From NCBI RefSeq assembly GCF_055900595.2, contig NZ_CM148325.1: a DNA stretch of 64,000 bases; one strand, given 5' to 3'. Shown here in pieces: positions 7,688 through 8,281 of this stretch (its first letter is position 1; each line of letters begins with the position of its first letter). Position numbers and translations under genes: made by a program. The notes under the pieces were generated by a model. It made no database searches. It was not told the origin of the DNA and saw only the letters and a list, made by a program, of their open reading frames with translations.

Positions 7688-8281
7688 CCTCTGAAAAGTG
7701 AATACTGAGTAGCGGGTAAGCGACCTTAGCTCTGCTGCAACATCGGCCCACAGGCACCAGACCAGGGGATTCATCCTTAAGAGACAGCGCAAGTGTATTG
7801 TGTTCACCGCTCATCAAAGACATCATGATGAAATGATGATATTCCGCATAAGAAAGAGGCATTTTTAGACGCATCGCGCTGAAGTGTGGTTGAATAAAAA
7901 TCAATCTTTTCAGATAAGACTGTCGTACGCTTATTCTGCGAAAATAAGGCCGTCGGCAAAGTAAAATGACTCACATAATTGTTTCTGATGAATATCTTCT
8001 ACTCACATGAATATTACACAATAATATTGATGCATCAGATTATCTTACCTTTACAACATCACGTTAACAGCCAATGACACTTCTTGAATAAAAATATTAT
8101 CAATCAAAGAGTTATTTTTTATTTAAGATTATTCTCATTCAAGTAAAAGACATAATTCCTATCATCACAGCCACGCTCATTTTGAATTATCTGAATAATA
8201 GCGAGCGTTCTTTAGTTAAGCAGGTCTTAATTGAAGACGAAATTATTGTGTGTGCAACTTACTTAATACCGGACATCTAAG

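What the first reader, a model, noticed from the sequence alone, without database searches (positions are those of the whole stretch)
7827..7866. Conserved ~40-bp element, copy 1, immediately upstream of the autotransporter start
gatgaaatgatgatattccgcataagaaagaggcattttt recurs with 2 mismatches at 17886..17925, while the flanks are unrelated. On the minus strand both copies begin an ORF MPLSYA(E/K)YHHFI...; copy 2 stops after 12 codons, copy 1 reads on into the autotransporter leader region. No Shine-Dalgarno is obvious. It could be a shared regulatory site, a leader peptide, a small RNA segment or a mobile-element end scar.
Basis: seen in the sequence. Interest (0 to 1): 0.5.

Follow-up and report, generated by a model that had tools for sequence, protein, structure and literature searches.

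The report
Orphan fragment of autotransporter leader
The 40-bp repeat is real, but one copy is simply the start of the upstream leader shared by two sister E. coli adhesin genes, and the other is most likely a functionless stray piece of that leader stranded in a patchwork of old prophage DNA.

Summary
7827-7866 and 17886-17925 match at 38 of 40 bases, none are expected by chance, and the flanks are unrelated.

The window is E. coli of a rare lineage (18 of 5,426 complete genomes). It covers the min–ycgI–ymg–blu–iraM–icd region.

Copy 1 is not a stand-alone element. It is the first 40 nt of a ~270-bp block covering the 5' leader and signal-peptide codons. That block is ~97% identical between the ycgI-locus AIDA-type autotransporter and its paralog ypjA/ehaD, while the flanks are 77-83% identical. 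It overlaps the end of ymgJ and the start of a 39-codon ORF that RefSeq calls "hypothetical protein" or "ATPase".

That ORF shows no protein-level constraint: 4 synonymous versus 19 nonsynonymous variants, with the start lost and the stop moved in some lineages. No RNA structure, Rfam family, Fur box or inverted partner was found.

Copy 2 occurs only in this lineage. It lies 100 bp downstream of trkG, inside a 4.8-kb insertion between iraM and icd. That insertion is a mosaic of a Rac-type trkG cassette, a lambdoid ren-flank fragment and an IS5 remnant.

Every other occurrence found (more than 130 loci) is the ypjA or ycgI leader.

Best reading: copy 2 is an orphan recombination scar. Interest is low.

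The parts
7827..7866 (-). Copy 1. It is the first 40 nt of the conserved leader of the ycgI-locus autotransporter. It contains the last codons of the ymgJ homolog in one frame and the AUG plus the first 12 codons of the small ORF in another.
17886..17925 (-). Copy 2. This is an orphan 40-bp fragment of the same leader (41 bp when compared with ypjA). It lies 100 bp downstream of the trkG stop codon, in the same orientation as trkG. As an ORF it would be 12 codons long.
7600..7866 (-). High-identity block of about 97% against K-12 ypjA. It covers the leader, the autotransporter start and the signal-peptide codons. Flanks on both sides are 77-83% identical. The 3' edge is approximate.
7746..7862 (-). 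Equivalent of the 39-codon ORF that RefSeq annotates as 'hypothetical protein' or 'ATPase'. In this window the stop codon TGA has become CGA, so the frame stays open to 7554.
7804..7974 (-). ymgJ homolog: a 56-codon ORF with a GTG start. It ends inside copy 1. This ORF is not kept at the ypjA locus.
3002..7678 (-). AIDA-repeat autotransporter at the ycgI locus, a paralog of YpjA/EhaD. In the window a single indel splits it into two ORFs (3524-7807 and 3000-3596).
17339..22135 (.). Lineage-specific 4.8-kb insertion between iraM and the icd terminator. Copy 2 lies inside it.
17732..17836 (.). Fragment homologous (79%) to the intergenic region just downstream of ren in lambdoid prophages.
17975..19673 (-). 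trkG cassette, 89% identical to the one in the K-12 Rac prophage. The homology covers about 50 bp downstream and about 170 bp upstream of the gene.

Best explanation
Copy 1 is the 5' edge of the upstream leader shared by two paralogous AIDA-type autotransporter genes. One is the gene at the ycgI locus in this window; the other is ypjA/ehaD elsewhere in the genome. Its conservation comes from paralogy, sharpened by either gene conversion or constraint on the leader. It is not an independent 40-bp element.

Copy 2 is a stray 40-41-bp piece of that leader. It lies among the junctions of a small, decayed, prophage-derived mosaic island (trkG cassette, lambdoid ren-flank fragment, IS5 remnant) that only this E. 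coli lineage carries between iraM and icd. It most likely arose as a by-product of ectopic or illegitimate recombination, or as the last remnant of a longer copy trimmed by deletion. It probably has no function of its own.

Shown: the paralogy, the restricted distribution, the mosaic context, and the lack of coding or structural constraint.

Inferred: the recombinational origin of copy 2 and its lack of function.
For: (1) Window 7300-8060 aligns to K-12 ypjA and its upstream region over 759 bp. Copy 1 is the first 40 nt of a ~270-bp block that is 97% identical, with flanks at 77-83%.

(2) Ancestry switches at the edge of the block. Upstream, the window is closer to K-12 ycgI (85.5%) than to ypjA (75.7%). 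In the leader it is closer to ypjA (96.4%) than to K-12 ycgI (89.7%). This shows that the segment recombines between loci or is constrained.

(3) Every other occurrence found is the ypjA or ycgI leader:
- up to 3 places per genome in 5,287 of 5,426 E. coli genomes;
- 10 viral contigs, all ypjA next to CP4-57;
- 120 metagenome loci, all with the standard leader flanks;
- 2 genome-contig hits, both E. coli-like contigs in misassigned bins.

(4) The flanks of copy 2 exist in only 18 of 5,426 genomes, and always beside trkG.

(5) The insertion is a patchwork. It contains a Rac-type trkG cassette, a lambdoid ren-flank fragment 50 bp from copy 2 and an IS5 remnant. It shares no other patch with either autotransporter locus.

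(6) In this lineage both full leaders carry the identical 40-mer. Copy 2 differs from both by the same two substitutions, as a drifting derived copy would.

(7) No signal of function was found:
- the ORF shows 4 synonymous and 19 nonsynonymous variants, with variable start and stop;
- RNA folding is no better than shuffles;
- there are 0 compensatory pairs;
- there are no Rfam hits;
- the best Fur-box match is only 12 of 19;
- the only promoter-like site lies about 170 bp upstream of copy 1, not in it.
Against: A clean 40-bp patch with two unrelated flanks needs either two breakpoints 40 bp apart or a filler-type insertion. No donor or intermediate arrangement was found, so the mechanism is not demonstrated.

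The 5' end of copy 2 coincides with the A-run where paralog identity rises. That edge could instead mark a functional boundary such as a transcript 5' end.

Copy 2 is invariant in four haplotypes that differ at 10 other columns of 251. This is expected by chance about 18% of the time, so it does not discriminate.

No expression data could be consulted.
Confidence: 0.62

Rival explanations
1. The 40-mer is a shared cis-regulatory site, either a protein operator on DNA or an sRNA/protein target on the mRNA 5' end. It would control the autotransporter genes and would have been retained or co-opted downstream of trkG.
For: An 18-nt core (ATATCATCATTTCATCAT) is invariant in 124 leaders. The leader is far better conserved between paralogs than its flanks are. 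Copy 2 keeps 38 of 40 bases although everything around it is unrelated.
Against: Within the leader the 40 bp are no more conserved than the remaining ~150 nt: 5 variable sites in the first 36 nt of the ORF against 18 in the other 84. The boundaries of copy 2 therefore do not outline a conservation unit. There is no dyad symmetry and no convincing Fur box. Copy 2 sits in a 3' flank rather than a promoter, and only 18 genomes carry it. Gene conversion can explain the conservation of the leader.
Confidence: 0.13
2. The 40-mer is the translation-initiation region of a small Shine-Dalgarno-less, possibly leaderless, upstream ORF. Translation of this ORF, rather than its peptide sequence, would tune autotransporter expression. 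Copy 2 would encode a truncated 12-residue version.
For: An AUG-initiated ORF starts inside both copies and in the ypjA leader. PGAP annotates it in many genomes. The A-rich sequence before the AUG is compatible with non-canonical initiation. The rise in paralog identity begins just upstream of the AUG.
Against: There is no purifying selection on the peptide, with 4 synonymous and 19 nonsynonymous variants. The AUG is ATA or ACA in about 10 of 124 leaders and 14 of 120 metagenome loci. The stop is lost in the window, a premature stop gives 30 codons in this lineage's ypjA leader, and copy 2 has 12 codons. The K-12 reference annotation lists the small proteins ymgK and ymgL nearby, but no gene here or upstream of ypjA. 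Pfam finds nothing, so the 'ATPase' label has no support.
Confidence: 0.08
3. The two copies are the ends of a mobile element: att-site duplicates or terminal repeats that bracket the 10-kb ymg-blu-iraM segment.
For: They are direct repeats 10,059 bp apart. Copy 2 adjoins prophage-derived DNA.
Against: The 10-kb segment encodes no integrase or transposase. It is present in nearly all E. coli, including K-12, without copy 2. Homology to the ypjA upstream region runs straight through the outer edge of copy 1 for another ~200 bp, which an insertion junction would interrupt. There is no inverted partner.
Confidence: 0.03
4. The 40-mer is part of a structured RNA or small RNA gene.
For: None beyond the sequence conservation.
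Against: Folding z-scores are +0.45 for the copy 1 leader and -0.29 for the copy 2 region. RNAalifold gives a covariation term of +0.18 and 0 compensatory pairs. There is no Rfam match at the gathering threshold or at E<=1. No terminator-like site follows either copy on the minus strand.
Confidence: 0.03

Closest known systems
5' upstream/leader region of E. coli ypjA (ehaD), the adhesin-like AIDA-type autotransporter, with its PGAP-annotated 39-codon ORF (e.g. WP_001120794.1)
   Same: Copy 1 and about 190 nt downstream of it are 96-98% identical to the ypjA leader. The homology continues into the gene and about 200 bp upstream.
   Different: Copy 1 sits at the ycgI locus, not at ypjA. Copy 2 shares only 40-41 bp and has no autotransporter gene beside it.
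ymgJ (b4594) with the ycgI pseudogene region of E. coli K-12
   Same: This is the orthologous locus. In K-12 the 40-mer lies at 1,223,405-1,223,445 and covers the last codons of ymgJ.
   Different: In K-12 most of the autotransporter has been deleted, leaving a 344-bp remnant (ycgI). Here the gene is full length apart from one frameshift. The ymgJ frame is not kept at ypjA, and no function is known for it.
Short isolated homology patches at module junctions of mosaic lambdoid prophages (the 'boundary' or 'linker' sequences described for HK97/HK022-type phages; cited from memory, not re-read here)
   Same: Copy 2 is a few tens of bp of high identity with unrelated sequence on both sides. It lies between modules of prophage origin: the trkG moron and the ren-flank fragment.
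   Different: The partner sequence is a chromosomal autotransporter leader, not another phage. No phage record contains it. A role in promoting recombination is not shown.
Dispersed bacterial repeats (REP/BIME, ERIC/IRU, MITEs)
   Same: It is short, intergenic, and occurs more than once per genome.
   Different: There are at most 3 places per genome, two of them paralogous. There is no palindromic structure, no inverted ends and no stable fold.

Membership tests
ypjA/ycgI-locus autotransporter 5' leader | Collinear homology across the whole ~190-nt leader and into the autotransporter start | tested here: met
   This applies to copy 1: 182 of 188 bases match K-12 ypjA, and the homology continues on both sides.
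ypjA/ycgI-locus autotransporter 5' leader | The same collinear homology, tested for copy 2 | tested here: not met
   Only 40-41 bp match. The flanks score no better than shuffled sequence, and no other patch is shared with either autotransporter locus.
Conserved small protein / leader peptide | Start and stop codons conserved, with an excess of synonymous over nonsynonymous change | tested here: not met
   Variants are 4 synonymous and 19 nonsynonymous against 22% synonymous expected. The start is lost in about 8% of leaders. ORF lengths are 12, 30, 39 or more than 76 codons.
Conserved small protein / leader peptide | Evidence of translation (ribosome profiling, tagging) | not testable with these tools
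   No expression data are available here. The K-12 reference annotation lists no gene at this ORF.
Structured RNA / Rfam family | A match to a covariance model, or a stable fold supported by covariation | tested here: not met
   There are no Rfam hits. Folding z-scores are +0.45 and -0.29. There are 0 compensatory pairs, although variation is too low for a strong test.
Integrative-element att site / flanking direct repeats | Repeats bracket a variably present segment that encodes a recombinase | tested here: not met
   There is no recombinase in 7867-17885. The segment is present without copy 2 in nearly all E. coli.
IS / MITE terminal repeat | An inverted partner copy, target-site duplication, and many copies | tested here: not met
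   A two-strand search finds only the 2 direct copies. There is no inverted pair. No genome has more than 3 places.
Fur box | A close match to the 19-bp consensus GATAATGATAATCATTATC | tested here: not met
   The best match is 12 of 19. Scanned on one strand, 76 positions in the window match the consensus at least as well.
Sigma-70 promoter | -35 and -10 hexamers with 16-18 bp spacing inside the element | tested here: not met
   The scan finds no site in either copy. The only site near copy 1 is at 8067-8039.

The most novel reading that the evidence does not exclude
The first ~40 nt of the ypjA/ycgI-locus leader are an autonomous functional module that works out of context. It could be a Shine-Dalgarno-less initiation region or a binding site for a regulator or sRNA that sets autotransporter expression. 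On this reading its presence in the trkG 3' flank reflects selection, not accident.
Probability: 0.08. Interest if true: 0.45.

Novelty: already known. Interest (0 to 1): 0.15.

Why it matters
It matters little for biology. It explains an apparently mysterious repeat as gene paralogy plus a recombination scar, and it flags the RefSeq 'ATPase' label on the 39-codon ORF as unsupported.

Two minor points may interest specialists. First, the leader of the ypjA and ycgI-locus autotransporters is far better conserved between the paralogs than either the promoter-side flank or the coding sequence. It also shows a switch of ancestry at its 5' edge. That pattern indicates either gene conversion or an uncharacterised 5'-UTR function for these normally silent adhesin genes. 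Second, a rare E. coli lineage carries the Rac-type trkG cassette outside Rac, in a small mosaic insertion next to icd.

Tried and rejected
- **att-site or island hypothesis for the 10-kb interval.** Rejected: there is no integrase, the segment is universal, and homology runs through the edge of copy 1.
- **Fur box.** Rejected: the best match is 12 of 19.
- **Promoter within the element.** None was found.
- **Structured RNA.** Rejected on folding z-scores, RNAalifold and Rfam.
- **Protein-coding small ORF.** Rejected on the variant tally and on Pfam.
- **Decayed third autotransporter paralog at the trkG site.** No other shared patches were found. tblastn found no remnant of the lambdoid ren, P, ybcN or two neighbouring hypothetical proteins around copy 2.
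- **Phage or plasmid origin of the copy 2 flanks.** There was no phage match. The plasmid hits covered only the 40-mer, in chromosomal-type records.
- **A donor carrying the two diagnostic substitutions of copy 2.** There were 0 metagenome hits.
- **The K-12 Rac sequence downstream of trkG.** It contains nothing like the 40-mer.
- **Literature.** There is nothing on function or regulation for ymgJ, and nothing specific for the ypjA leader. The RpoS and FlhDC genomic-SELEX peaks lie nearby but not on the element.
- **Limit of the cross-species search.** The genome-contig scan used an exact pattern and returned only two E. coli-like contaminant contigs. Absence from other species is therefore only weakly established.

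Full report
**Observation.** The 40-mer GATGAAATGATGATATTCCGCATAAGAAAGAGGCATTTTT at 7827-7866 recurs at 17886-17925 with two mismatches, in direct orientation and 10,059 bp apart. No dinucleotide-preserving shuffle of the window gave two matches. The 300-bp flanks on either side align no better than shuffled sequence, so this is an isolated island of identity. On the minus strand, copy 1 begins MPLSYAEYHHFI... and copy 2 reads MPLSYAKYHHFI followed by a stop. One point needs correcting: the autotransporter's annotated start is the ATG at 7678, 149 nt beyond copy 1, not the GTG at 7807 that opens the longest ORF.

**Where we are.** The window is E. coli. The gene order is minCDE, an AIDA-repeat autotransporter at the ycgI locus (minus strand), ymgJ, ymgI, ymgG, ymgD, ymgF, pdeG, ymgC-ariR-ymgA-ycgZ, bluF, bluR, ycgX, an extra ariR-like gene, iraM, trkG, an IS5 fragment, a 458-aa hypothetical gene, icd, and so on. 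Eighteen complete genomes, such as 2013C-4282 and AST85, share this configuration. Most E. coli are only about 89% identical around copy 1.

**What copy 1 is.** Window 7300-8060 aligns over 759 bp with K-12 ypjA (ehaD) and its upstream region. The two autotransporters are paralogs, and their upstream regions are homologous for about 380 bp. Measured against K-12 ypjA, identity varies along this stretch:
- 77-80% upstream of copy 1;
- 97.5% in copy 1;
- 97% through the rest of the leader and the first ~25 codons;
- 83% and then 63% further into the gene.

Copy 1 is therefore the 5'-most 40 nt of a ~270-bp high-identity block, not a free-standing element. In K-12 the same 40 bp cover the last codons of ymgJ. 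PGAP also annotates a 39-codon ORF that starts in it, both at the ycgI locus and upstream of ypjA. The product is named 'hypothetical protein' in some genomes and 'ATPase' in others. Pfam finds nothing in it.

**Why the leader is so similar.** I compared four sequences: the window's ycgI locus, ypjA from the same lineage, K-12 ycgI and K-12 ypjA. Upstream of the block the window groups with its ortholog, at 85.5% to K-12 ycgI against 75.7% to ypjA. Inside the leader it groups with ypjA, at 96.4% against 89.7%. In this lineage the first 84 nt of the two leaders are identical. This switch of ancestry close to the 5' edge of the 40-mer points to gene conversion between the loci, to constraint on leaders that still precede an intact gene, or to both. 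The available data cannot separate these.

**Tests of function.**
- *Coding.* Among 124 leaders from genomes and metagenomes, the ORF frame has 4 synonymous and 19 nonsynonymous variant sites, against 22% synonymous expected with no selection. All common variants change the peptide. The AUG is ATA or ACA in about 8% of leaders. The stop is lost in the window, a premature stop gives 30 codons in this lineage's ypjA, and copy 2 gives 12 codons. The other two frames look no better.
- *RNA.* The leader and the copy 2 region fold no better than shuffles, with z-scores of +0.45 and -0.29. RNAalifold on 12 haplotypes finds no compensatory pair, though there is little variation to test with. Rfam gives nothing at the gathering threshold or at E<=1.
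- *DNA sites.* No promoter-like hexamer pair lies in either copy. The best Fur-box match is an unremarkable 12 of 19. There is no inverted partner.
- *Conservation within the leader.* The 40 bp are not better conserved than the rest, so the boundaries of copy 2 do not delimit a conservation unit.

**Distribution.** Across 5,426 complete E. coli genomes the 40-mer occurs at one to three places per genome. The places seen were the ycgI locus, which is almost universal, the ypjA locus, and the trkG flank, which occurs in 18 genomes. An exact degenerate pattern gave these results:
- 10 viral-contig hits, all ypjA next to the CP4-57 element;
- two genome-contig hits, both E. coli-like contigs inside non-Escherichia bins.

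The allele carrying one of copy 2's two diagnostic substitutions (TAC in place of TAT) gave no metagenome hit. No phage record matches either the leader or the flanks of copy 2.

**What surrounds copy 2.** Comparison with K-12 places a 4.8-kb insertion (about 17339-22135) in the short spacer between iraM and the icd terminator. It is a patchwork:
- about 390 bp of unknown origin that begins with a hairpin;
- 105 bp that are 79% identical to the intergenic region downstream of ren in lambdoid prophages;
- 49 bp of unknown origin;
- copy 2;
- another 49 bp of unknown origin;
- a 1.7-kb trkG cassette 89% identical to the one in the K-12 Rac prophage, with homology ending 50 bp past the stop codon;
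- an IS5 remnant and a hypothetical gene.

Nothing else in the insertion resembles either autotransporter locus. No Ren or neighbouring protein remnants flank copy 2. Copy 2 is unchanged in four haplotypes that differ at ten other positions of 251. That outcome is expected by chance about 18% of the time and so is uninformative.

**Interpretation.** The simplest account is that copy 2 is an orphan fragment of the autotransporter leader. It would have been picked up or left behind during the recombination events that built and then eroded this prophage-derived island. It differs by the same two substitutions from both full leaders of its own genome, as expected of a derived copy drifting neutrally. 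The leader demonstrably exchanges sequence between loci or is otherwise a recombination-prone homology.

I could not find a donor or an intermediate arrangement. The mechanism therefore remains inferred: two breakpoints, filler insertion, or a single deletion from a once longer copy. I put this reading at about 0.6.

The alternatives are a cis-regulatory site (about 0.13), a sequence-independent Shine-Dalgarno-less upstream ORF (about 0.08), mobile-element ends (about 0.03) and a structured RNA (about 0.03). They either lack positive evidence or are contradicted.

**Verdict.** The repeat is real but ordinary. One copy is already annotated sequence: the end of ymgJ, a PGAP small ORF, and the ypjA-type leader. 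The other is most likely a scar. The only mildly interesting residue is the unexplained, unusually strong conservation of the ~190-nt leader between the two autotransporter paralogs.

Noticed in passing
window 7600-7866 (minus strand): The leader plus signal-peptide codons of the ycgI-locus autotransporter are about 97% identical to ypjA, while both flanks are 77-83%. Ancestry also switches at the 5' edge, from ycgI-like upstream to ypjA-like in the leader. This indicates gene conversion or an uncharacterised 5'-UTR constraint.
   Followed up: partly
window 3000-7807: The AIDA-repeat autotransporter is 99.4% identical to the intact 1,558-aa gene of strain 2013C-4282. A single indel splits it into two ORFs (3524-7807 and 3000-3596). 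It is therefore probably a recent pseudogene, or there is a sequencing error.
   Followed up: partly
window 17339-22135: A 4.8-kb insertion lies between iraM and the icd terminator and is found in only 18 of 5,426 complete E. coli genomes. It carries a Rac-type trkG cassette outside Rac, an IS5 remnant and a 458-aa hypothetical protein whose only family hit is a weak, sub-threshold DUF6062 match. Both junctions fall in A-runs.
   Followed up: partly
window 17732-17836: A 105-bp fragment is 79% identical to the intergenic region just downstream of ren in lambdoid (including Stx) prophages. It is stranded 50 bp from copy 2.
   Followed up: yes
window 16471-16731: An extra YmgB/AriR-family gene (86 aa) sits between ycgX and iraM. 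K-12 has only the tiny ymgK and ymgL genes there.
   Followed up: no
window ~31100-41850: A P4-like satellite or phage-inducible island lies between phoQ and roxA. It encodes an integrase, primase, Icd-like protein, major capsid protein, head decoration protein and small terminase. This is inferred from the annotation of the near-identical genome.
   Followed up: no
window 24980-25102, 54301-54376, 61354-61477: Rfam hits above gathering score: isrC, naRNA4 (CssrE) and STnc490. None is related to the finding.
   Followed up: no
window 11045-11064: A 20-nt stretch just upstream of the pdeG start resembles the outer half of the 40-mer at 80-85% (ATGAAATGATG...TTCGC). It is probably a chance match.
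   Followed up: no
L009 and L010 (genome-contig hits): A 539-bp low-coverage contig in a Terrisporobacter mayombei assembly is 99% identical to the E. coli ypjA upstream region. One end of a 16.8-kb contig in an 'uncultured Clostridiales' MAG is 98% identical to the E. coli ycgI region. Both look like contamination or mis-binning.
   Followed up: partly
L144 19908-20000 and equivalents (RefSeq WP_071791767.1, WP_072000982.1): PGAP names the 30-39-aa ORF in the autotransporter leader 'ATPase'. Nothing supports that name: there is no Pfam hit and no sign of selection on the peptide.
   Followed up: partly
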